A stretch of DNA of 43,547 nt from Thermoanaerobaculia bacterium (lineage in GTDB: Bacteria > Acidobacteriota > Thermoanaerobaculia > Gp7-AA8). Each line of letters opens with the position of its first letter. Position 1 is the first letter of the stretch. Location: the NCBI GenBank assembly GCA_023700825.1, contig JAMPYE010000001.1, positions 1 to 43,547 on the forward strand, read 5' to 3'. Below, piece after piece: positions 12,025 to 30,238 of this stretch. The translations under genes and the position numbers were made by a program. A model generated the notes under the pieces. It searched no databases, was not told where the DNA came from, and saw only the letters and a list, made by a program, of their open reading frames with translations.

Positions 12025-12537
12025 TCAGCGGGCGACGATATTCTCGAGCCCCTCGAAGACGAGCCTGTCGCCGACTCCGAGGCCTCGCGCCGCTGCCTGC
12101 CCCGCTGCCAGCTCCAGCACGTAGCGTGCCGCCGCCTTCGGCGGATACGACGGGCACGGGTCTGCCTTGCAGGGCGGCACGTCACGCGCAATGTCGACGA
12201 TCGAGCCGGTCTTGTCGATCCAGATGATGTCGAGCGGGATGAGGGTATTCTTCATCCAGAACGGATAGACCGCGCTCTCCCGAAAGACGAAGAGCATGCC
12301 GCGGTCGTCTCCGAGGCTGGAGCGGAACATCAGCCCCTGGGCGCGCGTGAGCTCGTCGCTCGCCACCTCGACGGCGATCCTCGATCCCCCGGGAAGCACG
12401 ACCACCGGCGACGGCGCGGAGGAACCGCCTGCAGTGGCCATCCCCGTCGATTCGCTGCGCGCCCCGTCGCGGGCTCCGCACGAGATCCCGATCGAGAGAA
12501 CGACGAGAAGCACCGGGACTGCGATCGCCAGCCTCAC
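12025..12537 (-). CDS. DUF192 family protein (lipoprotein signal)
   Basis: Only the last 170 codons of the 671-aa ORF look real. The GTG at 12535-12537 overlaps the ntrC-like TGA (GTGA). The signal is LLVVLSIGISCG. The DUF192 core is RAQGLMFR...GMLFVF...FWMKNTLIPLDIIWID. Confidence 0.75.
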   Translation of the reverse strand: MRLAIAVPVLLVVLSIGISCGARDGARSESTGMATAGGSSAPSPVVVLPGGSRIAVEVASDELTRAQGLMFRSSLGDDRGMLFVFRESAVYPFWMKNTLIPLDIIWIDKTGSIVDIARDVPPCKADPCPSYPPKAAARYVLELAAGQAAARGLGVGDRLVFEGLENIVAR

Positions 12538-13922
12538 TCTTCCTCGTCCTTTCCAACGCCGACGATGCCGTGCTTCTTCGCGTAGTAACGGAACGAGCGG
12601 AACGACATCTGAAGGATCTCGGCGGCGGCCTTCTGCACGCCGTTGCTCCGCTCGAGCGCCTGCATCATCAAGCTTCGGACCACCGACTCCACGTGCTTTT
12701 CGAGGTTGATCCCCGCGACGGGAAGCTCGTACGGGCCTGCGGCGGAGCTCTCGCCGAACAGAACGCTTTCGGGGAGCGAACGGGTCATGAGAACTTCCGA
12801 GGTCTCGAGCGCGACCGCGCGCTCGATGACGTTCTCGAGCTCGCGGACGTTGCCCGGCCACGCGTATTTCTCGAGCGCGCGCATCGCATCGACCGAGATC
12901 CGCCTCGGCGGAGTCGCCATCTGCGCCGAGAACTTCGAGATGAAGTGGTCGGCGAGCAGCGGGATGTCTTCCTTGCGCTGTCGCAGCGGGGGGAGCGTGA
13001 TCGGGATGACGTTGATCCGGTAGAAGAGATCCTCCCGGAACGACCCCTTCTGTATCGACTCGCCGAGGTCGCGATTCGTGGCGGCGATGACCCGGACGTC
13101 CACAGGCACTTCTTCGTTGCCTCCGACCCGGCGGATGACCCGATCCTGCAGGACGCGGAGGAGCTTCACCTGCATCGCGGGCGTCATCTCGGTGATTTCG
13201 TCGAGGAAGATCGTCCCCTTCTCCGCCTCCTGGAAGAGCCCTTTTTTGTCGCGGATCGCCCCGGTGAACGCTCCCCGCTCGTGCCCGAATAGCTCCGACT
13301 CGAGCAGCGCCTCGGGGAGCGCGCCACAGTTGATCGAGACGAACTTGCCGGTGCGGCGCGAGTGGTAGTGGATCGCGCGCGCGATGAGCTCCTTGCCCGT
13401 GCCCGACTCGCCCGTGATGAGCACGGTCGAGTGCGTCGGCGCGATGCGGGACACCACGCCGAAGATCTGCTGCATCTTCGGGCTCTTCCCGATGATGTTC
13501 GCGAAAGTGAAGCGCTCCTCGAGCGCGGTGCGAAGGTGGACGTTCTCCGTCTCGAGCTCGCGACGCTCCACCGCCTTGCGGACGATGATCTTGAGCTCTT
13601 CGATGTCGAACGGCTTGGCGATGTAGTCGTACGCTCCCGCCTTGAGCGCGCTCACGGCCGACTGCGTCGAGGTGTACGCCGTGATCATGATCACCGGCAC
13701 CGCCTCGTTCTGCGCCTTCATCTCGCGGAGAAAATCGAGCCCCGAGCCGTCGGGCATCATCAGGTCGCACAGAACCAGGTCGGGCTCGCTCTCGTGCAGG
13801 CGCTCGCGCGCCTCGTGCAGCGAGGCGGCCGCGCGGACGTTCCACCCTTCGTCCTCGAAGACGATCGACAGGAAGTCGCGCAGTGACCCTTCGTCGTCGA
13901 CGATCAACAGGTTCAGCGGCAT
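12534..13922 (-). CDS. Sigma-54-dependent response regulator (NtrC/AtoC family)
   Basis: 462 aa. The REC domain is LLIVDDE...LVLCDLMMPDGSG. The AAA+ domain has GESGTGKE, the GAFTGA loop and ESELFGHERGAFTGA. A Fis-type HTH lies at the C-terminus. No histidine kinase gene is present in the window. Confidence 0.9.
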   Translation of the reverse strand: MPLNLLIVDDEGSLRDFLSIVFEDEGWNVRAAASLHEARERLHESEPDLVLCDLMMPDGSGLDFLREMKAQNEAVPVIMITAYTSTQSAVSALKAGAYDYIAKPFDIEELKIIVRKAVERRELETENVHLRTALEERFTFANIIGKSPKMQQIFGVVSRIAPTHSTVLITGESGTGKELIARAIHYHSRRTGKFVSINCGALPEALLESELFGHERGAFTGAIRDKKGLFQEAEKGTIFLDEITEMTPAMQVKLLRVLQDRVIRRVGGNEEVPVDVRVIAATNRDLGESIQKGSFREDLFYRINVIPITLPPLRQRKEDIPLLADHFISKFSAQMATPPRRISVDAMRALEKYAWPGNVRELENVIERAVALETSEVLMTRSLPESVLFGESSAAGPYELPVAGINLEKHVESVVRSLMMQALERSNGVQKAAAEILQMSFRSFRYYAKKHGIVGVGKDEEE

Positions 13923-13930
13923 GCGCGGCG

Positions 13931-13936
13931 ATTATA
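13931..13936 (-). promoter_or_regulatory. Perfect TATAAT hexamer 8 nt upstream of the NtrC-like ATG
   Basis: The minus strand reads TGA-cgccgcggcggaTATAATcgccgcgc-ATG in the 26-nt gap between the helicase stop and the regulator start. This could be an internal promoter giving a leaderless or near-leaderless mRNA. Confidence 0.3.
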
Positions 13937-13948
13937 TCCGCCGCGGCG

Positions 13949-16024
13949 TCATCGACGGCGCCGCCGGCGAAGGAGCGTCGACGATCGAACCCAGCTCCCG
14001 GTAACGACGCAGCCGCGTACGGAGGCTTCGAACGCGGCACGTTCGGGCGCCTCGGCGCGCAGCGCTCGAATCAACGCCTCGATCGAGCAGCCGTCGACCG
14101 GCGCCGCGACCGTCTCGGCGATCAGGGTCTCCGCGCCGGCCCGGTACCGGCGCGAAAGCGCTTCGACGAGATCCCGCGTCGCTCCGCCGCTTCGTTCCGC
14201 GGCGTCGAGCAGTCTCGCCTGCGCGGACGAGACCGTGACATGAGCCGGCTGCAACTCGCGCGAGCGAACCAGCGCCCGATACCGCTCGACAGCAAGGACA
14301 ACCTCCGCGATCGCATTTCGCGTCGCGGGGGCGAGTCCCGTCGTCGCCGGAACTGCCTCGCGCCCCCCGCGTACCGGGCCGGCCGATCCGTCGCACTCGA
14401 CCACGCGCGTCGCGAATCCCTCGCGGCCTCCTCGCCGCTCGAGCAGATCGACGACACACAGCTCCGCGCCGCCGCCTGCCACGCTCATGCGGTCGATCCG
14501 CGCGGAGCCGCGCGTGCATCCTTCACCCGAGCGTGCCGTCATGAGCCTCTTCCGCTCCCCGAGCTTCCGCTCGATGGCATCGGCCACCGGGCTGCGCTCG
14601 GCCACCAGCACGACGTCGTCCACGCTCTCCGCGGTCTGCCCGATACGGCTCACACGCCCGATCCGCTGCTCCAGCTTCGACGGATTCCACGGCAGGTCGG
14701 CGTGAACGACCCAGGTCGCATCCTGGAGGTTCAACCCCTCGCAGCCCACGTCGGTGGCGACGACGACGTCGAGCAGGTCGCGTTGCAACAGCTCGAAGAC
14801 GATGCCGGCCGTCGCGGCCTCTCCGTCGTGGCGCCGGCACCCGGCCCCCGTGACCAGGGCGCATCGCAGCGTTAGGCGCAGCGACGACCAGATCGCCCGT
14901 GCCGTGTCCCTGCTCTGCGCGAAGACGAGCCCGCGTCTTCCCGGAAAGCCCGCGACGACACTCGCGACGAGCTCGACCTTCGGGTCGTCAGCGAAGCCGT
15001 TCGACAGAAACCGCAGCGCGGCCTCGAGCGCGGAGAGCTCCCGTCGCAGCGCCCCCGCATCCGCGGGCGCCACCCCGCCACCGAGCCCCCACAACTCCGG
15101 GAAGAGAAGATCCTGAAACAAGGGTGCGTCGCGGTCGCCAAACGCTGCGCGATAGGTCGCCCCCGTCATCGCGACACCGCGGAGTGCGCACTCGAGAGCG
15201 CGCGCGTGCAGCCTCCGCAACCGCTCGAGCGTCGACCGCAGGGCTGAGAGGCTCGACTCGAGCCGCCGCCAGAGAAACGCCCGCAGAAGCCCCGCTCCAC
15301 TCCGCGCCACGAGTGGAAACTCCAGGCAGCGAAGAACCGCGGCGAGCTCGCGCTCGAGCATCCCCGCCGGGCGGTACGGCACCTCGATCCGGTTCGCCCG
15401 CGTGAACCGCAGCGCCCTGGGGAGCACGCCGCCGTCACGGCGTACGGCGATCTCCCCGATCACCTCCCGAAGTTGCGGCTCGGAGCGGAGGCGGAACGCC
15501 TCGTCGAGCGACGGAACTCCGCGATCCGCCAGCGCGTCGTCCGCGAGGAACAGCCCGAGCAGCGCGCGAAGGTCGTCGGGCGTGTTGCACACCGGGGTCG
15601 CAGTGACCAGCAGTACCGCAGCGCCACGCGCTCGCAGCGCCATCGCGCGATAGCGCGCGGTTCGCGGATTCCGCAGTCGGTGAGCCTCGTCGACGATCAA
15701 CAGCCTCTCGCGCAGTCCCGCGGGCGCTGCACGGGCAGCGAGCGAGTCGTGAGAAACGACCGCCGAGGCCAGACCGAACTGCTCGGCGACTTGCCGCCAC
15801 TGGGCGAGAAGGGGCGCAGGCACGACGATCTCCGAACTCCCGCCGCGGTCTTCCCACACGCGCGCGACTGCGGCCGCGACCCACGACTTGCCCAGCCCGA
15901 CCTCGTCGGCGAGCAGAGCCCCGCCACGCAGCGCGAGCAAATCGAGAATCCACTCCACCGCCTCCTCCTGGTACTGCGCGAGCAACGGGGAGGCAGGCAC
16001 GGCCGCGCCGGGGAAAAGGCTCAT
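13949..16024 (-). CDS. SNF2-family (DEAH) helicase/translocase, compact form with unassigned C-terminal domain
   Basis: ORF 13949..16549 trimmed to the ATG at 16022-16024, which overlaps the methyltransferase TGA (ATGA). Walker A ADEVGLGKS (GLGKS at nt 15884-15898). DEAH at nt 15680-15691 (LIVDEAHRLRN). Motif III LLVTATPVCN. Motif VI QRIGRVSRIGQ. The last ~170 aa have no motif I recognise. Confidence 0.85.
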   Translation of the reverse strand: MSLFPGAAVPASPLLAQYQEEAVEWILDLLALRGGALLADEVGLGKSWVAAAVARVWEDRGGSSEIVVPAPLLAQWRQVAEQFGLASAVVSHDSLAARAAPAGLRERLLIVDEAHRLRNPRTARYRAMALRARGAAVLLVTATPVCNTPDDLRALLGLFLADDALADRGVPSLDEAFRLRSEPQLREVIGEIAVRRDGGVLPRALRFTRANRIEVPYRPAGMLERELAAVLRCLEFPLVARSGAGLLRAFLWRRLESSLSALRSTLERLRRLHARALECALRGVAMTGATYRAAFGDRDAPLFQDLLFPELWGLGGGVAPADAGALRRELSALEAALRFLSNGFADDPKVELVASVVAGFPGRRGLVFAQSRDTARAIWSSLRLTLRCALVTGAGCRRHDGEAATAGIVFELLQRDLLDVVVATDVGCEGLNLQDATWVVHADLPWNPSKLEQRIGRVSRIGQTAESVDDVVLVAERSPVADAIERKLGERKRLMTARSGEGCTRGSARIDRMSVAGGGAELCVVDLLERRGGREGFATRVVECDGSAGPVRGGREAVPATTGLAPATRNAIAEVVLAVERYRALVRSRELQPAHVTVSSAQARLLDAAERSGGATRDLVEALSRRYRAGAETLIAETVAAPVDGCSIEALIRALRAEAPERAAFEASVRGCVVTGSWVRSSTLLRRRRRR

Positions 16025-19000
16025 GCGCGCCGCGCCCCTCTTCGCCGAAACGCAAAACGGGCGAGCGTGGCGAGCTCCCTCTCGTCGATTCCGAAGAGCG
16101 ACGCGACCAGCGCGTCCAGCTCGGCGTCGACCTGCTCGCCCGCCTGACCGCGGGCGGCGAGTTTCGCGAGCGCACGCTCCTCGCGCGAGCCCGCCTTCAC
16201 CGGCGGCACCGGCGTGGCGGCGACCGTCGCGGCGAGGAGCCGGAAGTGGTCGTCCTTCGCGCGCTCGGCAACGTCCAGGCAAAGCGCGTCGATCACGGTC
16301 GAGTTCAGCAACGCGCAAAGCGCGAGGGCCTCGTCGTCTCGCGACGCGTCGATCGAGTAGACCGTCTGATTCGGCACGACCGCGAACTCGCGCCCCGCGA
16401 CCGTCGTCGATGCCGGCAGCACCGCCGCCTCGAACCCGCGCGAGAGATCCCTCCACACGACCTTCAGCCCGAGGTGTTCTGCCCTGAGGTAGTCGAGGCG
16501 AATCGCGGATGGGGCTACGCAGAGGGCGAGGGCGACGCGCTCGATCCACACGTCGTCATCGGGACGTCTCCTGGCTGGTGGACAGAGCATCCAGGTGGAG
16601 TCGGTCGCCGACCATCGCCGCACGTCGCGACCCCGGACACATCGCACGACCGCCCGATCGGGAAGCCGCACTCCGTTCGAGCGAAGGACGACGCCATCCT
16701 CGGCAACGTCGACGTCGTCGAGAAAGAAGGTCGAGTTCGCACCCGTCTTCACCCCCATCACCGGCATGCGTCCGAGCGCGATCGAGAGAGGAGGAAACGC
16801 CTCGCGCAGGCGGGAGATGACCGCGCGGCATTCGGGCTCGGCGAGCGACCACGCGGATCCCGCGCCCGACGAGGCGATCGACTGCTGGCTCACTTCCCAT
16901 CTCGCGTCCGATTCGGTGATCTCGAGCGACGCCGCGCTGTGACGCTCGTTGCGGACGACGAGTCCGAGCGGAAAGACGTCCGCGCCGAAGAGCCGCTTGC
17001 CCTCGCGCGACCAGTCGCGGAGCGCCACGAGCTCATGCAGCTTCACGATCTCGCGCCGCATCGTCGCGGCGTATTCGGCCGTCAGCACCTTCGACGGCAA
17101 TAGTTGCGCGAAGACGCCGCCGGGCTCGAGCAGCGACAGCGACCTTTCTACGAATGCGACCGCGAGCTCGGACTGTGCGAAGCCGCCTGCGCCGCGGCGG
17201 CGGAAGAACCGGTACCGCTCGGCGCAGGCGCGCCGCAACCCCGGCTCGATGCGGCTCGAGCGCACCCAGGGAGGATTGCCGATCGCGACGCTGAAGCCCC
17301 CCGTGGCGAGGATGCCGGCGAAGTGAACGTCGAACGCGAAGAACTCGAGGTCGCCCCTGGCGACTCGCGCGAGCGTTCGTGCCGTCGTGGCGATCCTCTC
17401 GCGCAGAGCCTCGGGCGACTCTTCTCCGATCGTGGCGCGTTCCGTGCCGAACAGGTCCTTCACCGGCGTCTCCAATCGCGCGAGCTCCGTCCGATCGGCA
17501 TCGAGCGACTTCTCGAGCATCGTCGAGCTCAGTGCGAGGTCGGACTCCCGCAGAGCTCGCGCCAGGGCGTCGCGCCGCCCCCACGGCGCGTGCTTGTAGC
17601 GCGTCACGAGGTCCTCGCGGTCCCGGAGCGCACGCGACCACTCGCGATAGATCCCCGCGCGCGCGCCGCCGAGAAAGTCGAGCGGTCCCGCGAGCGAGTT
17701 CCCCTGCAGCACGTTTCTGTCGAGGTTAGGCAGAGGCGGAACGCTCGCAGCGTCGTGCTCCGACGCGGACACGATCGCGAGCCAGAGGCGAAGCTCGCAA
17801 AGGCGCACCGCCTCGCTCTTCAGGTCGACGCCGAAGATCGAGCGCTCGACGATCCTCGCGCGCAGGTCGGCTTCCACCGGCTCGCCCGCCGCCTCGGCCC
17901 CCCGGCGCGTGAGCGTTTCGACCACGCGCATCGCCGAGAGCAGGAACGCTCCCGAGCCGCATGCGGGGTCGATCACCGTGATCGAGCGCAGCTTCGACAG
18001 CAGCGTTCCCGCTTCCGTCTCGGACAACCGTACATCCCCTCCCTCGAGCGTGCTGCGCATCGCTCCCGAGAGCGAGCGATCCCGTCCCGCCACCCACTCG
18101 ACGACTGCGTCCGTCGCAAGCCGGTCGACGAGGCTCCTCGGCGTGTAGAACGTCCCGCTCTCGGCCCGCTCGTCAGTCTCCATCAGCGACTCGAACACGC
18201 GCCCGAGCATCTCGGGATCGATGTGCACTCCCTGCTCGTCGTCCTCGTTGGCACAGAAGGAGAACCGCTCGAACGTGTCGTCGAGCACCTCGCGCCACAA
18301 GGCGTCGGAGAGAGCGAGCGTCGGATTGCGCTGCTCGAACGCCGAGCGCGCGAAGAGGCCCCCGTTCAGGTAGGGAATCAGGCCGAGAGCGAGTGCCGAT
18401 GCGCTCCGACGCGCGCGCGGCGTGCTCAAGCAGTCGAAAAAGAGCGGCGCGAGCACCCGCGAGTGAAAACCACTCTTCCCGTTCGCGGCCCGCTCGAACG
18501 ACGAGCGGATGAATCGATGCGATCCGTCGAGCCACCCTTTCTGCTGAAGGAAGTAGAGAAAGAGAAGCCGCGACAGAAGCAGCAGGGCGTAATCGCGCCG
18601 GGCACGCGGCGTTTCCGCCGGCAGCGCCGCCGCGATCGCCAGGTCGATCGTGCGCAGCGCCCTGCGAAACCGCTCGAAGAAGCGGCGACCGGCGGATTCG
18701 CGGTCGAGCGCATTCCGGAAGAGCGCCCGCGCGTCCACTGTCGCGGCCGTTCGCGACAGGTCGAGCGACGCGATCCGATCGACCGCGTCGGCCGACGGCG
18801 TGTCGAGCGTGACGTCGAGCCTTCGCGTGCCACGGCAACCGAAGAGAGACATCGAATCGCGCGACGGCGAGAACCAGACGACCGAGGGCTCGAGAATCCT
18901 GTTCCAACGCGAAAGCCCGCTGAGAAACGGAATGACGGCGCTGCGCGAACTTTCCTCTCGCGCCTCGAAGGCGTAGAGGTCGACCCCTCCGTGACGGATC

Positions 19001-19158
19001 AAATGCCATGCGTCGACGCCGTCGACGCGCGCACCGTCGACCGACGACCACTCGCCGGTATCGACGCGGTTCGGCGAAGCGGGCCACCCGAGGCGCGAGA
19101 AGAGCGCCGAGGCGTCGCGCGCCGATCGGCAACTGCGGAGATCGGCCGCGGTGATCAT
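16021..19158 (-). CDS. Large gamma-class N6-adenine DNA methyltransferase (Eco57I/MmeI/PglX-like architecture)
   Basis: 1045 aa. The helical region has LFLYFLQQKGWL and IPYLNGGLF. GTFYTPR is at aa 335-341. Motif I is VIDPACGSGAFL (DPACGSG at nt 17950-17970). QGNSL follows, then a ~120-aa insertion. FDVHF..GGFSVAIGNPPW carries NPPW at nt 17266-17277. A ~400-aa C-terminal putative target-recognition region completes the protein. I saw no clear nuclease motif. Confidence 0.85.
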   Translation of the reverse strand: MITAADLRSCRSARDASALFSRLGWPASPNRVDTGEWSSVDGARVDGVDAWHLIRHGGVDLYAFEAREESSRSAVIPFLSGLSRWNRILEPSVVWFSPSRDSMSLFGCRGTRRLDVTLDTPSADAVDRIASLDLSRTAATVDARALFRNALDRESAGRRFFERFRRALRTIDLAIAAALPAETPRARRDYALLLLSRLLFLYFLQQKGWLDGSHRFIRSSFERAANGKSGFHSRVLAPLFFDCLSTPRARRSASALALGLIPYLNGGLFARSAFEQRNPTLALSDALWREVLDDTFERFSFCANEDDEQGVHIDPEMLGRVFESLMETDERAESGTFYTPRSLVDRLATDAVVEWVAGRDRSLSGAMRSTLEGGDVRLSETEAGTLLSKLRSITVIDPACGSGAFLLSAMRVVETLTRRGAEAAGEPVEADLRARIVERSIFGVDLKSEAVRLCELRLWLAIVSASEHDAASVPPLPNLDRNVLQGNSLAGPLDFLGGARAGIYREWSRALRDREDLVTRYKHAPWGRRDALARALRESDLALSSTMLEKSLDADRTELARLETPVKDLFGTERATIGEESPEALRERIATTARTLARVARGDLEFFAFDVHFAGILATGGFSVAIGNPPWVRSSRIEPGLRRACAERYRFFRRRGAGGFAQSELAVAFVERSLSLLEPGGVFAQLLPSKVLTAEYAATMRREIVKLHELVALRDWSREGKRLFGADVFPLGLVVRNERHSAASLEITESDARWEVSQQSIASSGAGSAWSLAEPECRAVISRLREAFPPLSIALGRMPVMGVKTGANSTFFLDDVDVAEDGVVLRSNGVRLPDRAVVRCVRGRDVRRWSATDSTWMLCPPARRRPDDDVWIERVALALCVAPSAIRLDYLRAEHLGLKVVWRDLSRGFEAAVLPASTTVAGREFAVVPNQTVYSIDASRDDEALALCALLNSTVIDALCLDVAERAKDDHFRLLAATVAATPVPPVKAGSREERALAKLAARGQAGEQVDAELDALVASLFGIDERELATLARFAFRRRGARRA

Positions 19159-19232
19159 TCGCCAATCCCCCGTGACGCGACCCTCCGCCCCAATGCGATT
19201 AGACTAGTCAGGCCACTCGGGCACCCATTCGC

Positions 19233-20936
19233 ATGAAGCTTCGTCCCGGCTACCTCAAACGCATTCTCGGCGGCGCGGTCTTCGGCCTCTACATCGGCCA
19301 CCTCGTCCTCTTTCTGAACCCGCAGATCGCCGCGCGGCCGGGAGTCGTCGCGCCCGCCGTCATCGCCTACGCGCTGCTCTGGGGCTTCCTCTTCGGGTCG
19401 CTTCTCTGGCTGCTTCGCGTCGTGCGCGTGCGCGTCTTCGGGCGCAGTGACGGAGAGTTCCGTCCGCACGGCTTCGGGTACGTGGTCGTTGCCGCGTTCT
19501 TCGCCGCTGCAATCTACTGGGTCCACCTCGCCCTGTTGCGGATCTACCTCCCTCCCGGCGCAGTCCGCGTCCTCTCGAAGGCCTCGATCCTCGTCGCGAT
19601 CACCGCCTTCGTTCTGTTCGCGCTCTGGCTCGTCGAGCGCAACGCCAAGGCTCGAGCGTCGACCGGCATCGTGCTCTGCGCCCTGGGCGTGGTCGTCACC
19701 TCGTCTCTGCTTCTCTACCAGCGGCGCGCTCTCTACGCCGAGAGACCGAGCCCGCCGCGGCCCGCTCCCGTCGTCGCGACACCCGTCGCGCGAGTCACGA
19801 TCATCACCGTCCGGGCGCTTTCCTACGACTGGCTCGTCACCGCCGACGGCGAGGGAACGACACCGTTCCTCCAGGAGCTCCGCGCGCACTCGTATTTCAC
19901 CCGGATGCAGCCGTTCAACTCGTCGAGCTCGCGCGCGCTCTGGGCGTCGCTCGCGACGGGCAAGCTTCCGAACCGACATGGCGTCACGGGGCGGTACTCG
20001 TACAGAACGCTTCTCAACCGCAACGATCCGTGGCTCAACATCCCGATCGGCGTCGGCTTTCCGACGTGGGGCCTGTTGCCGCCGGTCGAGAAGATCGCCG
20101 CGCCGCTCCCGTCGGGCAACTCGCTCCCCGTCTGGTCGATGCTGCGGCGGTCGGGCGCAGCCACCGTCGTCGTCAACTGGCCGGCATCCCAGGGAAGCCT
20201 CGGCGGCGGCATTCGCGGAGCCTCCGATCAGATCTGTCGCGGCAAGGCGTTCGCGCAGCCTGCCGACGAAGCGCTGCTTCGGAAGGCGTGCGCCGACGCC
20301 GCGGTCGCGGCAACCGTCGCCGACGCGAGACTCGCCGGGCTCGACGAGCGCGCGCGCAACCGGATCCGCGACGCATCCATGGCCGACCGGGCCTCGGCAA
20401 CTGTCGCCCTCGAGCTCGCGCGGGGAACCGGCGCGTCGCTCGCGATCATCTCGTTCAACCAGCTCGACGAGGCCGCGCGCGCGATCGGGCACGAGGGCAA
20501 CTCGCTTCCAGCGTCCGCCTCCCCCTCCGGGGACGCGCTTCGCGTGGCGCTCGAGCGCATCGACGCTCTCGTTCGCGAGATCGATCGCGGAATCGACGAC
20601 GACATCCTGGTCGTGGTGTCGCCCTCGAGCTTCGACCCGCCTCAGATTCCGTCGAGTCCGATGTCGGCCCTCAGGCTCCTCGCGTCGGGCTTTCTCGCGC
20701 CCGGCAGCGACGAAGGGTTCCTGCTCGTCGTGGCCCCGCGCAAGGAGTCGCCCGCGAATCCGGAGCCCGCTCAGGTCGTCGATCTCGTGCCCACGGTTCT
20801 TTACGCCGCCGGCATGCCGGTCGCTCGCGACCTCGACGGCAGGGTTCTCCCCGAGGCACTCGGCGACGAGATCCCTGTCGACCGCAGCGCCCAGTACATC
20901 CAGACCTACGAGCTCGGCCCAGCTGAGCAGCCCTGA
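19233..20936 (+). CDS. Membrane-anchored alkaline-phosphatase-superfamily (nucleotide pyrophosphatase/phosphodiesterase-like) protein
   Basis: 567 aa with about 5 N-terminal TM helices. SLATGKLPNRHGV and DLVPTVLYAAGMPVARDLDGRVL resemble type I phosphodiesterase/AlkP-family motifs. It is divergent from the methyltransferase gene. Confidence 0.6.
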   Translation: MKLRPGYLKRILGGAVFGLYIGHLVLFLNPQIAARPGVVAPAVIAYALLWGFLFGSLLWLLRVVRVRVFGRSDGEFRPHGFGYVVVAAFFAAAIYWVHLALLRIYLPPGAVRVLSKASILVAITAFVLFALWLVERNAKARASTGIVLCALGVVVTSSLLLYQRRALYAERPSPPRPAPVVATPVARVTIITVRALSYDWLVTADGEGTTPFLQELRAHSYFTRMQPFNSSSSRALWASLATGKLPNRHGVTGRYSYRTLLNRNDPWLNIPIGVGFPTWGLLPPVEKIAAPLPSGNSLPVWSMLRRSGAATVVVNWPASQGSLGGGIRGASDQICRGKAFAQPADEALLRKACADAAVAATVADARLAGLDERARNRIRDASMADRASATVALELARGTGASLAIISFNQLDEAARAIGHEGNSLPASASPSGDALRVALERIDALVREIDRGIDDDILVVVSPSSFDPPQIPSSPMSALRLLASGFLAPGSDEGFLLVVAPRKESPANPEPAQVVDLVPTVLYAAGMPVARDLDGRVLPEALGDEIPVDRSAQYIQTYELGPAEQP

Positions 20937-20953
20937 CTTCGGCTCGCGGTCGC

Positions 20954-21547
20954 TCATCGCGCCTCCGCGACCACTCGCGCGAGCATCTTCAGGCGGACCT
21001 TGCCCGTCGTTCCATAGACGACCACGACGGCCGCCCCGTCTGCTCCGTCCGTCAGGTAGATCGACCCGGGCGTGCTGCTGCCGTTCGGGGAAAACGAACA
21101 GAGCGTCGAGCGGTTGAATCGGACGGGGGACGCGTCGGGCTCGATCCTCTCTTCGCGCTCCGCGTCCCACAGGGCGATCCCGGGAAGGCCGATGCGAACC
21201 TTGCCCGTGCTTCCGAACACTTCCCGGTACGGGCGGGTCATCGGGTCGACGCCGCTGAGGATGTCCTCGTTGCGCACCCCGTCGCCGTCGCCATCGTCGA
21301 AGAAGCCGTAGTGCCAGACCTCTCCGATCATGCGGAACTTCACCGCGGAGTTCGCGCCGCGGGCGACGCTTCGCATCCGGATCTCACGGAAGATCGAGCG
21401 CAACTCGGCGGCGGCCCCTCTCAGTTCACGCTTCCGGGATATCTGCGTCAGCGACGGGACCGAGATCGCAGCGAGGAGACCGATGATCGCGACGGAGACC
21501 AGAAGCTCGATCAACGACACGCCGCGGGCTGAGGAATTCGATTCCAT
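20954..21547 (-). CDS. Prepilin-type N-terminal cleavage/methylation domain protein (GspH/FimT-like pseudopilin)
   Basis: 197 aa. RGVSLIELLVSVAIIGLLAAI is the class III signal/methylation motif with Glu at +5. Confidence 0.8.
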   Translation of the reverse strand: MESNSSARGVSLIELLVSVAIIGLLAAISVPSLTQISRKRELRGAAAELRSIFREIRMRSVARGANSAVKFRMIGEVWHYGFFDDGDGDGVRNEDILSGVDPMTRPYREVFGSTGKVRIGLPGIALWDAEREERIEPDASPVRFNRSTLCSFSPNGSSTPGSIYLTDGADGAAVVVVYGTTGKVRLKMLARVVAEAR

Positions 21548-21631
21548 GGTGATTTCTCCTTTCGTTGTTTCGGGGTTTGGAAATGGAGGGGGCCGCTCCC
21601 TTGCGGGAGCGGCCCGTGGGGCGGGCGGCGG

Positions 21632-22009
21632 CTAGTGCGCCGTGGTGGAGGGCTGTGCGGCGGTCGACGACTTCTTCGCGCGAGGCGCCTTCTGCTTGGC
21701 CGAGAGGGTCGTCTTCCCCTCGAGCACGACGTAGGGAGCGACGAGGTCGAACGTCTTGTCGCTGATTCCCTTGACCTGCATGAGGTCGGTGGCCTTCTTG
21801 AACTGGCCGTTCTCTTTGCGCCAGGCGACGACGCGATCGGCCGTCTTCTCTCCGATTCGCGGCAGGTACGCGATCTGCGACGCGTCGGCCGAGTTGATGT
21901 TGACGACGCCGGCAACCTTCGCCGGGGCGGACTCCTCGGCGGCGAACGCGCCGAGGGCACCGAAGATCATGACGACGACCGTGACGATGTTGATGAGGGA
22001 CTTACGCAA
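21632..22009 (-). CDS. comEA: ComEA-family helix-hairpin-helix DNA-binding protein
   Basis: 125 aa with a signal peptide. NINSADASQIAYLPRIGEKTADRVVAWRKENGQFKKATDLMQVKGISDKTFD is the ComEA HhH core. TTG start with a GGAG SD. Confidence 0.8.
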   Translation of the reverse strand: MRKSLINIVTVVVMIFGALGAFAAEESAPAKVAGVVNINSADASQIAYLPRIGEKTADRVVAWRKENGQFKKATDLMQVKGISDKTFDLVAPYVVLEGKTTLSAKQKAPRAKKSSTAAQPSTTAH

Positions 22010-22011
22010 GG

Positions 22012-22044
22012 TCTTATCTCCTTTTTTCAGGTTGGTTGTTGTTG
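22012..22044 (-). promoter_or_regulatory. CA-rich 5' leader module, second copy
   Basis: The minus strand reads GGAACCAACAACAACCAACCTGAAAAAAGGAGATAAGACC followed by TTG. The 15-mer CAACAACAACCAACC (plus 22030-22044) and AGGAGAT are identical to the leader at 5640-5677. Confidence 0.5.
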
Positions 22045-22500
22045 GTTCCGTTCAAACTTCCACTCGTGTTCACTGGGGTCACACACACACCGTGTCGTGC
22101 TTCTTTCTCTGTTTTTCTTTTCTCTCTCCTCCAACTCACCTCCTTTCGCGGCTCTGTAAGTTCAAGAGCGGCGCCAGGTGGCATGGAACGATAAGTATCT
22201 GAAACTAAAAGCGTTGTTCCGTTGGTCCGACAGGAAGGGCGTCAAATTATTTTGCGAGTTCCGGGGACTGCAAGCTGGCTTTGACAAAACGCCCCGTACA
22301 CAAGGCGTCCCGCCTTGCTCGCTCCGCCTGAATCGCCCGATCCGCGTGGTTCGGCAAAGGCCCGAGGCCTTCGCTACGTGCCTTCGCGACCAGCCCGACT
22401 TGCTCACACCTCGACCAAGTCCTTCCTACGCCCCGCGCTCTCTCGTAAACTCACAGGCGCGCAACGGGGGCCTCCCGGAGGCGCGTGGCTCCGGAGGGTC

Positions 22501-26377: not shown

Positions 26378-27687
26378 GTCAACTCCTCGAGGGCGGAGCG
26401 GAGCCCGGGGTAGACGACGAGCGCGGGCCGCGCCTCACGAACCATCCGGATCGCGGCGTCGACGTCTGCCGCGCGCCCGGTCGCGACGAGCCATGCGACG
26501 ACCGCCGAGGCGCTGCGCGAGAGGCCGACGGCGCAGCACACGAGCACGGGGCCCTGCGCCCGCGCCTCTTCGATCGCGGCGACCGCATCGCGGAGCTTCT
26601 CCGATGGCGGCACGGTGAGATCGAGCACCGGGATCGAGCGATAGCGCTGACCCTTCGCAACGGCGAAAGGCAGTTCGGCCGACAGATCGACGATTGCGGC
26701 GAAGCTTTCACGATCGCCGTCGAGCGGGCCGCGAATGCGTCCGACGGAGACACCGTCGGCCACGATGCCGGACTTCGGACGCCAGGCGTTGCGAATTCGC
26801 GAGTTCATCCAGGCGCCGAAGAAGTACGGCGCGAGCAATCCCCACGCGCCCACGCTCATCGTGCCGCGCGGAGTCTTCTGGAATCCGCGCTCACCGATCG
26901 CGAGATAGTTGAGCGCGACCACGTACAGAGAGCCGGCCGGCCAGAACATCCAGAGCCAGGAGCCTCCGAGGAGGGACGGAATGGCCACCACCACGGCGCC
27001 GAGCGCGTAGATCGCGGCGAGACGTTTCCTCTGCGCGTCGCTCGCGACCGACATTCCCGCGAGCGGCGAGCGCGTCCCCTCCGGGAGCGCCCAGAGAATC
27101 GCGAAGCCGACCGCGAGTCCCGTCGGGATGTCGATGAAGTGATGCTGGTAGGTGGTCAGGACCGACACCCCGACGAGGAGCATCCAGACGTGCAGCACGA
27201 CGCGCAGCCACATCGGCCGCGTGTGAGCCGCGAGGCGGACCCAGATCAGGACGAGCAGACTGATGTGGAGCGACGGCGCCTGGTTGAACGGCTTGTCGAA
27301 GCTGCCTAACGCCGTAAAGAGCGCGCCGTAGATGCCGTCGGCCGCTGGGCGATCGAACGAGAACCGAAGGGGAAACGCGATGAAGCAGGCGACCGAGATC
27401 AGCTGCGCGGCGAGGAGGCGCTGCGCGTGCCGGTCGAGCTCGCGGCGCGTCGCGCAGATCAGCAGCGAGAGCCCGTAGAAGAGATCGATCGACCAGTAGG
27501 GAACGATCGTCCAGGGGACGAACGGAATCGCATGCTCCCAGCCGTACGCAATCGACCCAACGCCGAGCCTCCGGCTCGCGAGCGTGTTCGCGAGACCGTA
27601 GCTCGCGAAGAAGAAGGGCCCGAGCAGCGCGAGCCATCCAAGCGCGCGAAGCAGGGGCCGCTTTTCTGCTGCGCCGCCGTCGCTCAT
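26374..27687 (-). CDS. PAP2-like phosphatase / dual-specificity (Cys-based) phosphatase fusion protein
   Basis: ORF trimmed to the ATG at 27685-27687 (ATGA overlap). The N-terminal polytopic domain has PSLH and HHFID (PAP2 motifs 2 and 3). The C-terminal domain has VCCAVGLSRS, a CX5R(S) P-loop. Confidence 0.75.
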   Translation of the reverse strand: MSDGGAAEKRPLLRALGWLALLGPFFFASYGLANTLASRRLGVGSIAYGWEHAIPFVPWTIVPYWSIDLFYGLSLLICATRRELDRHAQRLLAAQLISVACFIAFPLRFSFDRPAADGIYGALFTALGSFDKPFNQAPSLHISLLVLIWVRLAAHTRPMWLRVVLHVWMLLVGVSVLTTYQHHFIDIPTGLAVGFAILWALPEGTRSPLAGMSVASDAQRKRLAAIYALGAVVVAIPSLLGGSWLWMFWPAGSLYVVALNYLAIGERGFQKTPRGTMSVGAWGLLAPYFFGAWMNSRIRNAWRPKSGIVADGVSVGRIRGPLDGDRESFAAIVDLSAELPFAVAKGQRYRSIPVLDLTVPPSEKLRDAVAAIEEARAQGPVLVCCAVGLSRSASAVVAWLVATGRAADVDAAIRMVREARPALVVYPGLRSALEELT

Positions 27688-30061: not shown

Positions 30062-30238
30062 GGGGAGTTGTTAGTTGTTAGTTGTTAGACGGTTTGCGCG
30101 CGAAGTCCGCTGTTCGCAATTGCCGCCAGAACCTCGATGCGCAACTGGGACCCTAATTCGTTTCGTCAATGTTGCCGGTCGCGATGCCTGTCTAACAACT
30201 AAAAACTAACAACTAACAACTCCCAACTAACAACTGCC
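30062..30238. repeat. Low-GC intercistronic element bounded by inverted heptad arrays (TTGTTAG)n / (CTAACAA)n
   Basis: The left arm at 30062-30090 is ggggagttgttagttgttagttgttagac. The right arm at 30190-30224 is gtctaacaactaaaaactaacaactaacaactccc. It equals the reverse complement of the left arm apart from one extra 7-nt unit. An unrelated ~99-nt core separates them. Confidence 0.8.

What the first reader, a model, noticed from the sequence alone, without database searches (positions are those of the whole stretch)
13949..19158. Stand-alone two-gene module: nuclease-less PglX/MmeI-class N6-adenine methyltransferase translationally coupled to a compact SNF2 helicase
Seen in sequence:
- A 1045-aa protein carries, in order, the helical LFLYFLQQKGWL/IPYLNGGLF region, GTFYTPR, motif I VIDPACGSGAFL, QGNSL and a ~120-aa insertion. 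It continues with FDVHF..GGFSVAIGNPPW and a ~400-aa C-terminal region.
- Its TGA overlaps (ATGA, 16021-16024) the ATG of a 691-aa SNF2 protein with GLGKS, DEAH, TATPVCN and QRIGRVSRIGQ.

Established knowledge: this methyltransferase architecture is that of type IIG/IIL enzymes (MmeI, Eco57I) and BREX PglX. Such methylases are paired with helicases in DISARM class 1 (DrmMI plus SNF2 DrmD), BREX type 3, Hma and type ISP enzymes.

What is odd here:
- None of the expected partners is adjacent (PglZ, BrxC/BrxL, DrmA/DrmB/DrmC, PLD or Mrr/PD-(D/E)xK nuclease, extra ATPase).
- The flanks are a sigma-54 regulator on one side and an AlkP-like membrane protein on the other.
- By eye, G+C and codon usage match the surrounding core genes, and no integrase, tRNA or transposase marks an island.

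Inference: this is either a minimal, undescribed methylation-plus-translocase defence system or a domesticated epigenetic/chromatin-remodelling pair.
Basis: partly seen in the sequence, partly recalled or inferred. Interest (0 to 1): 0.8.

Follow-up and report, generated by a model that had tools for sequence, protein, structure and literature searches.

The report
Core-genome nuclease-free methylase–Snf2 motor operon
Two overlapping genes encode a DNA adenine methylase and a Snf2 DNA motor with no nuclease; the pair has been inherited vertically in two soil bacterial phyla, so it looks like a restriction-type module converted to a host function rather than a mobile anti-phage system.

Summary
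On the minus strand, a 1045-aa Eco57I/MmeI/PglX-class N6-adenine methyltransferase (16021-19158) overlaps by ATGA a 691-aa Snf2 ATPase (13949-16024). No nuclease motif or domain was found in either protein.

- **Conservation.** The pair is fixed in Thermoanaerobaculia. In a metagenome sample anchored on the neighbouring gene, 62 of 63 loci carry the methylase and 49 of 50 carry the Snf2 gene.
- **Vertical descent.** It co-diverges with flanking housekeeping genes (Spearman 0.82-0.94). A second clade sits in a different conserved housekeeping neighbourhood in Gemmatimonadota, with the same 4-nt overlap seen in one checked locus.
- **Specificity.** The target-recognition domain is about as conserved as the catalytic domain (identity ratio ~0.87). 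In distant defence-type relatives the ratio is ~0.55-0.60.
- **Origin.** In nine such distant loci examined the methylase neighbourhood holds a ~1100-aa Snf2 protein, and in the three tested it carries a PLD/HKD nuclease domain. The pair is therefore probably a nuclease-free descendant of a two-gene restriction-like module.
- **Mobility.** No full-length homologue was found on any plasmid or phage record. No other defence gene, tRNA or mobile-element gene was seen among the window ORFs examined.

Most likely function: Snf2-assisted, fixed-specificity adenine methylation serving the host. A BREX-like, nuclease-free defence role remains possible. I found no published description.

The parts
16021..19158 (-). 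Gene for the 1045-aa gamma-class N6-adenine DNA methyltransferase with its own target-recognition domain (stop codon 16021-16023)
   Evidence: ORF and translation. Pfam Eco57I 5e-17, N6_Mtase and MmeI_Mtase. AF2 model pLDDT 80.6; Foldseek top hits are CamA, BrxX/PglX, MmeI, M.BseCI and M.TaqI.
18739..19158 (-). N-terminal alpha/beta domain (residues 1-140). Conserved 'L..LG(Y/W)', D60, N86, R112-R113 and R128, but no (D/E)xK. Function unknown; not a recognisable nuclease.
   Evidence: Conservation in A1 and A3. A profile search against PDB found nothing (best E 0.7). The domain is homologous across the family, including defence-type relatives, and none shows a D..ExK triad. No HxK motif anywhere in the protein.
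18169..18738 (-). Helical spacer region (residues 141-330) with LFLYFLQQKGWL and IPYLNGGLF, equivalent to the MmeI 'helicase spacer' domain
   Evidence: Weak Pfam MmeI_hel hit over 194-269. phmmer alignment to MmeI 5hr4, residues 194-461. 45 of 190 residues are invariant in the Thermoanaerobaculia clade.
17689..18168 (-). Methyltransferase N-lobe (residues 331-490). SAM-binding motif I, DPACGSGAF, lies at 17944-17970.
   Evidence: Motif I is invariant in 24 orthologues and across 43 sequences from both phyla.
17344..17688 (-). About 115-aa helical (coiled-coil-like) insertion between motif I and motif IV (residues 491-605). Candidate partner-binding surface (inference only).
   Evidence: The Pfam Eco57I match spans 440-716 of the protein against a 171-position profile. 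AF2 predicts helices at 501-512, 515-522, 526-563 and 582-600. The insertion is present in all orthologues.
16999..17343 (-). Methyltransferase catalytic lobe (residues 606-720). Motif IV, NPPW, lies at 17266-17277.
   Evidence: G627, N628, P629, P630 and W631 are invariant in both clades.
16204..16998 (-). Target-recognition domain (residues 721-985). Unusually well conserved, with MGVKTG.N, VRGRDVRRW, VPNQT.Y, LLNS and AERAKD blocks.
   Evidence: 43 of 265 residues are invariant within the clade. The TRD/catalytic identity ratio is ~0.87 in both core clades and 0.55-0.60 in defence-type relatives.
16024..16203 (-). C-terminal helical tail of the methylase (residues 986-1045)
   Evidence: AF2 predicts helices at 992-1005, 1011-1022 and 1026-1040. 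Sequence conservation is lower.
16021..16024 (-). ATGA overlap: the methylase stop TGA and the Snf2 start ATG share bases, implying translational coupling
   Evidence: Read directly from the sequence. The same 4-nt overlap occurs in L001 (Thermoanaerobaculia) and in L165 (a Gemmatimonadota-clade locus). The genes are adjacent or overlapping in most related loci.
13949..16024 (-). Gene for the 691-aa Snf2-family ATPase/dsDNA translocase with no nuclease domain (stop codon 13949-13951)
   Evidence: Translation. Pfam SNF2-rel_dom and Helicase_C. AF2 model pLDDT 83.2; Foldseek top hits are ISWI, Chd1, SMARCAD1, CSB and RapA. No HxK motif.
14555..16024 (-). Snf2 ATPase core (residues 1-490). GLGKS at 15884-15898, DEAH at 15680-15691, QRIGRVSRIGQ at 14636-14668. 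Only about 15 residues precede the Q motif, so there is no room for an N-terminal HKD or Tudor domain.
   Evidence: All ATPase motifs are invariant in 27 homologues. The ~1100-aa partners of three distant relatives carry an N-terminal PLD/HKD domain.
13952..14554 (-). Snf2 C-terminal region (residues 491-691). It holds an insertion of roughly 100 aa that most Thermoanaerobaculia homologues lack, then a helical tail conserved in all homologues ('SPQ ... RRYRAG.E.LI').
   Evidence: Alignment A2. AF2 secondary structure. No Pfam or PADLOC domain matches this region.
19159..19232 (.). 74-bp divergent intergenic region between the methylase and the PF01663 gene. Presumed to hold both promoters (not tested).
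   Evidence: Sequence. The head-to-head arrangement is kept in 62 of 63 related loci.
19233..20936 (+). Conserved neighbour in Thermoanaerobaculia only: a 567-aa AlkP-superfamily protein (PF01663), divergently transcribed. Context only; not shown to be part of the module.
   Evidence: Pfam. No PADLOC or PglZ hit. Adjacent to the methylase. Absent from the Gemmatimonadota loci.
12534..13922 (-). Sigma-54 response regulator starting 26 nt after the Snf2 stop. Conserved downstream neighbour in many Thermoanaerobaculia loci, at variable distance. Context only.

Best explanation
**Shown.** This is a two-gene, translationally coupled operon. It encodes an apparently active gamma-class N6-adenine DNA methyltransferase with a built-in recognition domain, and an apparently active Snf2 dsDNA-translocase ATPase. 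No nuclease motif or domain was detected in either protein. The pair is a fixed, vertically inherited chromosomal feature of a large Thermoanaerobaculia lineage. A sister clade is fixed in a different housekeeping neighbourhood in Gemmatimonadota. Its recognition domain is conserved, unlike that of its defence-type relatives.

**Inferred origin.** It descends from a two-gene restriction-like module made of a PLD/HKD-nuclease-Snf2 fusion plus a type IIG-like methylase. The motor protein lost its nuclease.

**Inferred mechanism.**
- The two proteins are made in fixed proportion and act as a complex.
- The methylase recognises one fixed, probably short and asymmetric, sequence and methylates one adenine. 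This is how MmeI, PglX and CamA-class enzymes behave.
- The Snf2 motor uses ATP either to load or activate the methylase on duplex DNA or to clear DNA-bound proteins for it. Dnmt5's SNF2 domain and the MANTIS MtsA/B ATPases play comparable roles for their methylases.
- The resulting mark serves a host function such as gene regulation, replication or repair bookkeeping, or self-marking. It does not drive classical restriction.
For: **Active enzymes.** Motif I (DPACGSGAF) and motif IV (NPPW) are invariant across 43 sequences from two phyla. GLGKS, DEAH, TATP and QR.GR..R.GQ are invariant in 27 Snf2 homologues. Folds are confirmed by Foldseek: the top methylase match is CamA, an adenine methyltransferase, followed by BrxX and MmeI; the Snf2 model matches ISWI, Chd1 and CSB.

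**No nuclease detected.** No HxK motif in either protein. The only (D/E)xK triplets lie inside the methylase and helicase cores. The methylase N-terminal domain has no conserved Lys or Glu and matches nothing in PDB by profile. The Snf2 protein starts about 15 residues before its Q motif.

**Fixed and vertically inherited.**
- Same synteny in 10 Thermoanaerobaculia loci at 44-83% identity.
- In a sample anchored on the neighbour gene, 62 of 63 loci have the methylase and 49 of 50 have Snf2.
- Pairwise identities of the methylase, Snf2, the PF01663 gene and the sigma-54 regulator correlate across 9 genomes (Spearman 0.82-0.94).
- The Gemmatimonadota clade sits in a conserved Nramp-NUDIX-LD-carboxypeptidase-GT2 neighbourhood, with a 4-nt overlap in the one professionally called locus checked.
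- GC3 matches the neighbours.

**Not mobile.** No place covering 80% or more of the methylase on 72,556 plasmid records or 50,697 phage records. The single full-length IMG/VR hit carries the same host synteny. No tRNA, and no defence partner among the window ORFs examined.

**Conserved specificity.** The TRD/catalytic identity ratio is ~0.87 in both core clades and 0.55-0.60 in distant relatives at equal catalytic identity.

**Origin.** Nine distant loci examined (24-29% identity) hold a 1076-1141-aa Snf2 homologue near the methylase gene. In the three tested, that protein matches PADLOC 'HKD+Snf2' at 1e-41 to 1e-64, and one also hits Pfam PLDc_2 and RE_NgoFVII. No DUF499 was found among the neighbours tested.

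**ATPase-dependent methylation has precedent.** Dnmt5 (bioRxiv 10.1101/2020.01.05.895227) and MANTIS (bioRxiv 10.64898/2026.09.23.753747).
Against: - No functional data exist. Methylation, the recognition motif, complex formation and any dependence of methylation on the ATPase are all inferred.
- The known conserved orphan methylases I can name (Dam, CcrM, CamA; from memory) work without a motor, so the need for one here is unexplained.
- BREX shows that methylase-containing systems can defend without an obvious nuclease.
- Prevalence was measured only among genomes that carry the orthologous PF01663 neighbour, and in a capped sample of Gemmatimonadota. It was not measured across all genomes of the two taxa.
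- A nuclease encoded elsewhere in the genome cannot be excluded from a 43.5-kb window.
Confidence: 0.55

Rival explanations
1. A minimal, nuclease-independent defence system, BREX-like in logic. The methylase marks self DNA. The Snf2 motor, triggered at unmethylated sites on incoming DNA, blocks replication or transcription by translocation or by evicting proteins, without cutting.
For: The closest profile matches are all defence components: type IIG methylases, DrmMI and PglX for the methylase, and DpdE, DrmD, BrxH and HmaA for Snf2. Relatives at 24-29% identity sit beside other defence genes such as Schlafen/AlbA, ORC-CDC6-like, OLD-like AAA_15 and BstA-like. Both enzymes are under strong purifying selection. 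BREX and related systems act with a PglX-type methylase and ATPases (PMC12839542).
Against: - The pair is fixed and syntenic across deep divergence: 62 of 63 loci, with co-divergence with housekeeping genes.
- Its recognition domain is conserved instead of diversifying.
- It is absent from plasmids and phages.
- It is not in a defence island.
- A single invariant target motif held for this long should be easy for phages to escape. That last point is an argument from general principles, not a test.
Confidence: 0.25
2. Still a true restriction system. [quoted passage not shown]
For: The methylase N-terminal domain (strand-helix order from AF2) has a topology compatible with a PD-(D/E)xK-like core, with one near-invariant Asp (D60). 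About 200 residues of the Snf2 C-terminus have no assignment. In BREX-related systems some taxa lack the helicase-nuclease fusion and encode auxiliary nucleases instead (PMC12839542).
Against: - No conserved Lys or second acidic residue in the N-terminal domain, in any clade, including the relatives whose partner carries the nuclease.
- No HKD motif.
- Most Thermoanaerobaculia Snf2 homologues (530-560 aa) lack most of the C-terminal insertion.
- No nuclease gene within ±10 kb in loci with professional gene calls.
- The conserved specificity domain and vertical inheritance argue against restriction-type arms-race dynamics.
Confidence: 0.1
3. A three-gene unit with the divergently transcribed PF01663 AlkP-superfamily protein, which would act as a PglZ-like partner.
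For: The PF01663 gene is head-to-head with the methylase in 62 of 63 loci. PglZ belongs to the AlkP superfamily (from memory).
Against: The PF01663 protein has no PADLOC hit at all, and so none to PglZ. It is absent next to the pair in Gemmatimonadota, where a GT2 glycosyltransferase occupies that position. The adjacency is as expected from plain conserved synteny, which also extends to ComEA-like, pseudopilin and sigma-54 regulator genes.
Confidence: 0.05

Closest known systems
Two-gene PLD/HKD-nuclease-Snf2 plus type IIG-like methylase modules (PADLOC 'C3a139 HKD+Snf2' with 'REase_MTase_IIG'). Seen here in Anabaena, Tenacibaculum and Thermoflexibacter loci, with similar ~1100-aa Snf2 partners in other distant loci.
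   Same: Both proteins are homologous. The methylase is 24-29% identical, in several loci over almost its whole length including the N-terminal domain. The Snf2 core is 22-27% identical. The two genes lie close together.
   Different: The relatives' Snf2 protein is about 1100 aa, and in the three tested it has an N-terminal PLD/HKD nuclease; the window's is 691 aa and starts at the ATPase core. The relatives' recognition domains diverge fast (identity ratio 0.55-0.60 against 0.87). Several sit among other defence genes, and gene order varies. The window pair is fixed in housekeeping synteny.
BREX-related (BR) / Hma systems, especially Type-2 BR (DUF499 ATPase + N6-methylase + HKD-Snf2 helicase + DUF3780; PMC12839542)
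   Same: A PglX/BrxXI-like N6-adenine methylase is combined with a Swi2/Snf2 helicase. HmaA is among the Snf2 profile hits (4.5e-19).
   Different: No DUF499 ATPase and no nuclease were found among the window ORFs examined or in related loci. DUF3780 was not searched for specifically.
DISARM class 1 (DrmD Snf2 helicase + DrmMI adenine methylase + DrmA/B/C)
   Same: Profile similarity to DrmMI (3e-24) and DrmD (1e-26), and the pairing of an adenine methylase with a Snf2 helicase.
   Different: NCBIfam DrmD scores are 113.6 and 93.2 against cut-offs of 610 and 950. DrmA, DrmB and DrmC are not in the locus.
Type IIL/IIG restriction-modification enzymes (MmeI, Eco57I) and BREX PglX/BrxX
   Same: Same order of helical spacer, gamma-class methylase and C-terminal recognition domain. 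There is sequence similarity to MmeI (5hr4) and structural similarity to MmeI and BrxX.
   Different: No D-x9-ExK nuclease. About 115 aa are inserted between motifs I and IV. NCBIfam PglX scores are 35-48 against cut-offs of 400-900. No PglZ, BrxC or BrxL.
CamA of Clostridioides difficile, an adenine methyltransferase I recall as a species-conserved orphan enzyme
   Same: Best structural match for the methylase plus recognition-domain part (Foldseek E 1.6e-16, target TM 0.71). As I recall, CamA is a lineage-conserved methylase with no cognate nuclease.
   Different: The CamA chains matched are about 540-576 residues and 12-13% identical in the structural alignment. As far as I know it has no motor partner.
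Eukaryotic SNF2-coupled DNA methylation (Dnmt5 SNF2 domain; DDM1/HELLS with DNMTs)
   Same: An analogy for how it may work: an SNF2 ATPase is functionally tied to a DNA methyltransferase. For Dnmt5, ATP hydrolysis is required for methylation independently of nucleosomes (bioRxiv 10.1101/2020.01.05.895227; PMC10538959).
   Different: Those are cytosine-5 methyltransferases, fused or acting in trans, and eukaryotic. No homology beyond the Snf2 core is claimed. The coupling here is untested.

Membership tests
Type IIL/IIG RM enzyme (MmeI/Eco57I family) | N-terminal PD-(D/E)xK endonuclease (D-x9-ExK in MmeI) | tested here: not met
   N-terminal residues 1-140 have one conserved Asp (D60) and no conserved Lys or Glu. 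The type IIG profiles align only from about residue 142. A profile search against PDB gave nothing.
Type IIL/IIG RM enzyme (MmeI/Eco57I family) | Helical spacer, gamma-class N6A methylase (motifs I and IV) and C-terminal recognition domain in one chain | tested here: met
   Pfam Eco57I, MmeI_Mtase and a weak MmeI_hel hit. Alignment to MmeI. Foldseek hits to MmeI, BrxX, CamA and M.TaqI.
BREX (PglX-containing systems) | PglZ and BrxC, plus BrxL or other subtype genes, in the locus | tested here: not met
   No such genes in the flanks or among the larger window ORFs. The PF01663 neighbour has no PglZ hit. NCBIfam PglX scores are 35-48 against cut-offs of 400-900.
DISARM class 1 | DrmA, DrmB and DrmC alongside DrmD and DrmMI | tested here: not met
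   Absent from the window ORFs examined and from syntenic loci with gene calls. DrmD scores are 113.6 and 93.2 against cut-offs of 610 and 950.
BR / Hma systems (PMC12839542) | DUF499 AAA+ ATPase next to the methylase and the helicase | tested here: not met
   The only other ORF in the window of 700 aa or more is a hydrolase-Methyltransf_20 fusion. No DUF499 in the related loci examined.
BR / Hma systems (PMC12839542) | Helicase fused to a nuclease (C-terminal REase or N-terminal HKD) | tested here: not met
   The Snf2 protein starts at its ATPase core. No HxK motif and no Pfam nuclease domain.
Type ISP RM enzymes (LlaGI/LlaBIII) | Single polypeptide with Mrr nuclease, SF2 motor, methylase and recognition domain | tested here: not met
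   Two separate genes, methylase first, and no nuclease.
Snf2 family dsDNA translocases | Two RecA-like lobes with Snf2-type motifs I, II (DEAH), III and VI, and an Snf2 fold | tested here: met
   Pfam SNF2-rel_dom and Helicase_C. Motifs invariant. Foldseek hits to ISWI, Chd1 and CSB at E ~1e-17.
Lineage-conserved orphan DNA methyltransferase (Dam/CcrM/CamA kind) | No cognate nuclease, vertical inheritance in a clade, and conserved specificity domain | tested here: met
   Absence of a nuclease elsewhere in the genome is not testable from one window.
Lineage-conserved orphan DNA methyltransferase (Dam/CcrM/CamA kind) | Demonstrated genome-wide methylation of one motif with a regulatory role | not testable with these tools
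   Needs a methylome and genetics. The only lead is the asymmetric m6A motif ATGCAC in Gemmatirosa kalamazoonensis (PMC3974934), and I could not check whether that genome carries the pair.

The most novel reading that the evidence does not exclude
Bacteria of two phyla carry a core-genome, ATP-dependent DNA-adenine methylation machine. In it, a Snf2 motor is an obligate cofactor of an orphan, fixed-specificity methyltransferase. That would be a prokaryotic counterpart of SNF2-coupled methylation in eukaryotes (Dnmt5, DDM1/HELLS), derived by domestication of a restriction-like module through loss of its nuclease.
Probability: 0.35. Interest if true: 0.8.

Novelty: new variant of a known kind. 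Interest (0 to 1): 0.62.

Why it matters
The conserved orphan methylases I know of (Dam, CcrM, CamA) are single proteins. Methylase-plus-Snf2 combinations in bacteria have been described only as mobile defence systems (DISARM, BREX type 3, Hma/BR).

This is a methylase-Snf2 operon in which no nuclease was found. It keeps one recognition domain and has been inherited vertically in large parts of two abundant soil phyla. If it works as proposed, that would mean:
- A defence module can be converted into a host epigenetic or genome-maintenance device.
- There would be a bacterial case in which a chromatin-remodeller-type motor is tied to DNA methylation.

It is directly testable. Gemmatimonadota have cultured members, long-read soil metagenomes can reveal the motif, and both proteins can be expressed in E. 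coli.

Tried and rejected
- **PglZ-like neighbour.** I suspected the PF01663 AlkP-like neighbour might be PglZ-like. It has no PADLOC hit and is absent in the Gemmatimonadota clade. Rejected.
- **ORF 19155-21170(-).** It abuts the methylase start and looked like a possible third gene. Its translation is Arg/Asp/Gly-rich antisense of the PF01663 gene. Rejected.
- **Cryptic nuclease.** A profile of the N-terminal domain against PDB gave nothing. A regex search found no HKD motif and no (D/E)xK outside the enzyme cores.
- **Phage or plasmid carriage.** Only partial matches (at most 50% of the query, under 30% identity) in PLSDB and INPHARED. One full-length hit in IMG/VR turned out to carry the same host synteny.
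- **Cultured carriers.** I spent the third homologue search on a Gemmatimonas-like methylase to find a cultured carrier. Only metagenome or MAG proteins appeared in the top 120. The link to the Gemmatirosa methylome motif ATGCAC therefore stays a lead.
- **Literature.** Seven searches found no description of this pair, and the BREX-related survey does not mention these phyla.
- **Locus L141.** This is the single locus lacking the pair. The methylase is cut after about 55 codons, and the sequence upstream is unrelated to its 97%-identical sibling L138. I could not tell whether this is a chimeric assembly or a real deletion.
- **My own ORF caller.** It sometimes picked antisense ORFs in high-GC loci. 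Synteny claims therefore rest on tblastn and on loci with deposited gene calls.

Full report

Yes. Both genes lie on the minus strand.
- From the ATG at 16024, a 691-aa protein follows with GLGKS, DEAH, TATPVCN and QRIGRVSRIGQ.
- The two share the bases ATGA at 16021-16024.
- The mechanical Snf2 ORF runs on to a GTG at 16549. That stretch overlaps the methylase 3' end, is Arg-rich, and is not matched by homologues, which align from the ATG.
- Pfam gives Eco57I, N6_Mtase and MmeI_Mtase (plus a weak MmeI_hel hit) for the first protein, and SNF2-rel_dom and Helicase_C for the second.
- The flanks are a sigma-54 response regulator (12534-13922, minus) and a PF01663 AlkP-superfamily protein (19233-20936, plus).
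- The 671-aa ORF 19155-21170(-) that touches the methylase start is antisense noise of the PF01663 gene.

**2. What the two proteins are.**

*Methylase.*
- The AF2 model has pLDDT 80.6. Foldseek places the methylase plus recognition-domain part closest to CamA (E 1.6e-16, target TM 0.71), followed by BrxX/PglX, MmeI, M.BseCI, BpuSI and M.TaqI.
- phmmer against PDB finds MmeI and PglX.
- In 24 orthologues, motif I (DPACGSGAFL) and motif IV (GNPPW) are invariant. They remain so when 19 Gemmatimonadota sequences are added.
- A helical insertion of about 115 aa separates the two halves of the catalytic domain.

*Snf2 protein.*
- The AF2 model has pLDDT 83.2. It matches ISWI, Chd1, SMARCAD1, CSB and RapA at E ~1e-17.
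- All ATPase motifs are invariant in 27 homologues.

Both proteins therefore look like working enzymes under purifying selection.

**3. Is there a nuclease?**

None was found.
- The type IIG profiles in PADLOC align only from about residue 142 of the methylase.
- Methylase residues 1-140 form an alpha/beta domain. Its only well-conserved residues are L19, L23, G24, R55, D60, N86, R112, R113, P121, D127 and R128, with no conserved Lys or second acid.
- A profile of this domain finds nothing in PDB (best E 0.7).
- The same domain is recognisable in all relatives, including the defence-type ones, and none shows a D..ExK triad.
- Neither protein contains any HxK. The few (D/E)xK triplets lie inside the methylase and helicase cores.
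- The Snf2 protein starts about 15 residues before its Q motif, leaving no room for an N-terminal domain.
- Its C-terminal 200 residues hold an insertion that most Thermoanaerobaculia homologues (530-560 aa) lack, followed by a short helical tail, 'RRYRAG.E.LI', conserved in all.

**4. Is the pairing conserved, and how is it inherited?**

This is the main result.

*Thermoanaerobaculia.*
- Homologue searches returned thousands of matches. The top 120 methylase hits are full-length proteins of about 1040 aa from Acidobacteriota and Thermoanaerobaculia, and several sit on the same contigs as Snf2 hits.
- Ten Thermoanaerobaculia loci (methylase 44-83% identical) show the same order: PF01663 gene (divergent), methylase, Snf2. 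The PF01663 gene is seen in all loci that extend far enough. A sigma-54 regulator lies downstream in most, often with DUF192, and ComEA-like and pseudopilin genes lie upstream in some.

*Prevalence without selecting on the methylase.*
- I scanned metagenomes with an alignment of the PF01663 neighbour.
- Of 63 loci with at least 1.5 kb upstream of that gene, 62 have the methylase head-to-head. Of 50 loci with at least 4.5 kb, 49 have the Snf2 gene directly after it.
- The one exception, L141, is 97% identical to an intact locus up to a breakpoint about 55 codons into the methylase. It may be a chimeric assembly.

*Co-divergence.* Across nine syntenic genomes, pairwise identities of the methylase, Snf2, the PF01663 protein and the regulator rise and fall together. 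Spearman is 0.82-0.87 between the pair and its neighbours, and 0.94 between the methylase and Snf2.

*Gemmatimonadota.*
- A second clade (methylase 32-36% identical, Snf2 730-830 aa) lies in a different but equally conserved housekeeping neighbourhood: Nramp, NUDIX, hydrolase, LD-carboxypeptidase, GT2, then the methylase and Snf2.
- On a 4.03-Mb contig with deposited gene calls, the two genes again overlap by 4 nt.
- A search with a Gemmatimonas-like methylase returns a smooth gradient from 98% to 53% identity, with lengths mostly close to 1060 aa.

*Composition.* GC3 of the two window genes (0.85 and 0.83) lies within the neighbours' range of 0.80-0.90.

**5. Is it mobile or in a defence island?**

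No.
- The window has no tRNA.
- Its flanks are housekeeping genes: LpxD, PTPS/QueD-like, a DnaJ-domain protein, an ECF sigma factor, a rhomboid protease, a flavoprotein, an amidohydrolase and UbiE.
- Ten further ORFs give no PADLOC hit apart from a generic methyltransferase match on UbiE.
- No plasmid in PLSDB and no phage in INPHARED has a place covering 80% or more of the methylase.
- Among 2.9 million IMG/VR contigs, one carries an orthologue, and it has the same host synteny (PF01663 gene, methylase, Snf2, regulator) at the contig end.

**6. Where did it come from?**

- Nine loci examined whose methylase is 24-29% identical (cyanobacteria, Bacteroidota, Chloroflexota and others) also have an Snf2 homologue within a few kb, and there it is 1076-1141 aa long.
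- In the three tested (Thermoflexibacter, Tenacibaculum, Anabaena), it matches PADLOC 'HKD+Snf2' at 2.4e-41 to 8.2e-64. The Thermoflexibacter protein also hits Pfam PLDc_2 and RE_NgoFVII at its N-terminus.
- The Thermoflexibacter and Tenacibaculum methylases score 784 and 489 bits on a type IIG profile.
- The neighbours tested are unrelated housekeeping genes or other defence genes, and none is a DUF499 ATPase.
- These are therefore two-gene restriction-like modules: a motor-nuclease plus a methylase. They are related to, but simpler than, the Type-2 BREX-related/Hma systems described in PMC12839542.
- The window pair is best read as a descendant in which the motor protein lost its HKD nuclease. 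This is an inference from domain comparison; no tree was built.

**7. Specificity domain.**

- Within Thermoanaerobaculia, the recognition domain (721-985) has 43 of 265 invariant residues. Its mean conservation is 0.64, close to the 0.68 of the catalytic domain.
- As a control, I compared pairwise identity in the recognition domain with that in the catalytic domain. The ratio is 0.86-0.91 in Thermoanaerobaculia and 0.86-0.95 in Gemmatimonadota, against 0.45-0.60 among the defence-type relatives at the same catalytic identity.
- Alignment quality in the divergent group may exaggerate the gap. The direction is still what a fixed target sequence in the core clades and diversifying targets in the defence relatives would produce.
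- Only 10 recognition-domain residues are invariant between the two phyla, so the two clades may recognise different sequences.

**8. How it most likely works.**

*Shown:* two apparently active enzymes, translationally coupled, no nuclease detected, fixed and vertically inherited, and a conserved recognition domain.

*Inferred:*
- The proteins form a complex.
- The methylase marks one adenine in a fixed, probably asymmetric site, as MmeI, PglX and CamA-class enzymes do.
- The Snf2 motor spends ATP to load or activate the methylase, or to clear its DNA substrate.

Precedents for ATPase-dependent methylation are Dnmt5, whose SNF2 domain's ATP hydrolysis is required for methylation independently of nucleosomes (bioRxiv 10.1101/2020.01.05.895227), and MANTIS, whose methylase needs a AAA+ ATPase and a co-regulator (bioRxiv 10.64898/2026.09.23.753747).

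I put about 0.55 on a host (non-restriction) methylation role. I put 0.25 on a BREX-like nuclease-free defence role, 0.1 on restriction with a hidden or trans nuclease, and 0.05 on a functional triad with the PF01663 protein. The PF01663 protein has no PglZ similarity and is missing in Gemmatimonadota.

**9. Comparison with known systems.**

The pair fails the membership tests for all of the following:
- MmeI-type RM enzymes: no nuclease.
- BREX: no PglZ or BrxC; PglX scores are 35-48 against cut-offs of 400-900.
- DISARM class 1: no DrmA, DrmB or DrmC; DrmD scores are 113.6 and 93.2 against cut-offs of 610 and 950.
- BR/Hma: no DUF499 and no helicase-nuclease fusion.
- Type ISP: split into two genes and no nuclease.

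It meets the sequence-level criteria of an Snf2 translocase and of a lineage-conserved orphan methylase. Seven literature searches and a check of the BREX-related survey found no description of this pair.

**10. Limits.**

- There are no functional data.
- Prevalence was sampled, not censused.
- The rest of the genome is unseen.
- The two unassigned domains could not be fold-searched separately.
- The window organism is an uncultured Thermoanaerobaculia bacterium. Its closest relatives are P0001 (94% identity) and GCA_051305935.1 (83% identity).
- The Gemmatirosa kalamazoonensis methylome contains an asymmetric m6A motif, ATGCAC, of the kind this enzyme class makes (PMC3974934). I could not check whether that genome carries the pair.

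**Verdict.** It is a new variant of a known kind, of moderate-to-high interest, and readily testable.

Noticed in passing
window 19155-21170 (-): A 671-aa ORF abuts and overlaps the methylase start by 4 nt and could be mistaken for a third operon gene. Its translation is Arg/Asp/Gly-rich. It is antisense to the well-supported PF01663 gene at 19233-20936(+), so it is a high-GC artefact.
   Followed up: yes
window 19233-20936 (+); L001 15175-17193 (-): The PF01663 AlkP-superfamily protein is head-to-head with the methylase in 62 of 63 related metagenome loci. One close relative (L001) has a second 672-aa PF01663 paralogue inserted between the Snf2 gene and the sigma-54 regulator. Neither copy has a PADLOC or PglZ hit. 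Why this adjacency is so stable is unexplained.
   Followed up: partly
window 20954-22051 (-): A GspH-like pseudopilin (N_methyl + GspH) and a ComEA-like HHH_3 protein lie just beyond the PF01663 gene. The HHH_3 gene recurs in L001-L003 and the pseudopilin in L001 and L003. A DNA-uptake-related neighbourhood next to a DNA methylase could be coincidence or a link to transformation. It is not seen in Gemmatimonadota.
   Followed up: no
window 13923-13951: The sigma-54 response regulator ATG (13922) lies only 26 nt after the Snf2 stop on the same strand, so the three genes may be co-transcribed in this genome. In other genomes the gap ranges from about 170 nt to more than 1 kb.
   Followed up: partly
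L141 7802 (breakpoint); compare L138: This is the only PF01663-anchored locus lacking the pair. It is 97% identical to L138 through the PF01663 gene and the first ~55 codons of the methylase, then switches to unrelated sequence encoding a thermolysin-like protease. It is either a chimeric assembly or a natural deletion of the pair within one population.
   Followed up: partly
window 14200-14550 (Snf2 residues ~500-600): The window's Snf2 protein and its closest relatives carry a beta-rich insertion of roughly 100 aa that most other Thermoanaerobaculia homologues (530-560 aa) lack. Gemmatimonadota homologues have a longer C-terminal extension (730-830 aa in total). None of these regions has an assigned function.
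   Followed up: partly
window 27684-30077 (-): A 797-aa protein fuses an alpha/beta hydrolase (Hydrolase_4, 5e-68) to a Methyltransf_20 domain (1e-152). It is an unusual fusion and appears unrelated to the finding.
   Followed up: no
L048 13259-16751 (Anabaena sp. UHCC 0451): In this distant relative, a BstA-like protein (4e-27) and an MzaA-like protein (7e-48) sit between the methylase and the HKD-Snf2 gene. This suggests a composite defence locus built around the two-gene module.
   Followed up: no
PMC3974934 (Gemmatirosa kalamazoonensis methylome): That cultured Gemmatimonadota strain methylates the asymmetric motif ATGCAC (m6A, over 99% of sites), a pattern typical of MmeI/PglX-class enzymes.
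   Followed up: partly
L166 (IMGVR_UViG_3300003315_000001, contig positions 26641-37209): A contig filed as viral in IMG/VR ends in the ordinary host arrangement: PF01663 gene, methylase, Snf2, sigma-54 regulator. Either a prophage sits next to this locus or the contig is misclassified.
   Followed up: partly
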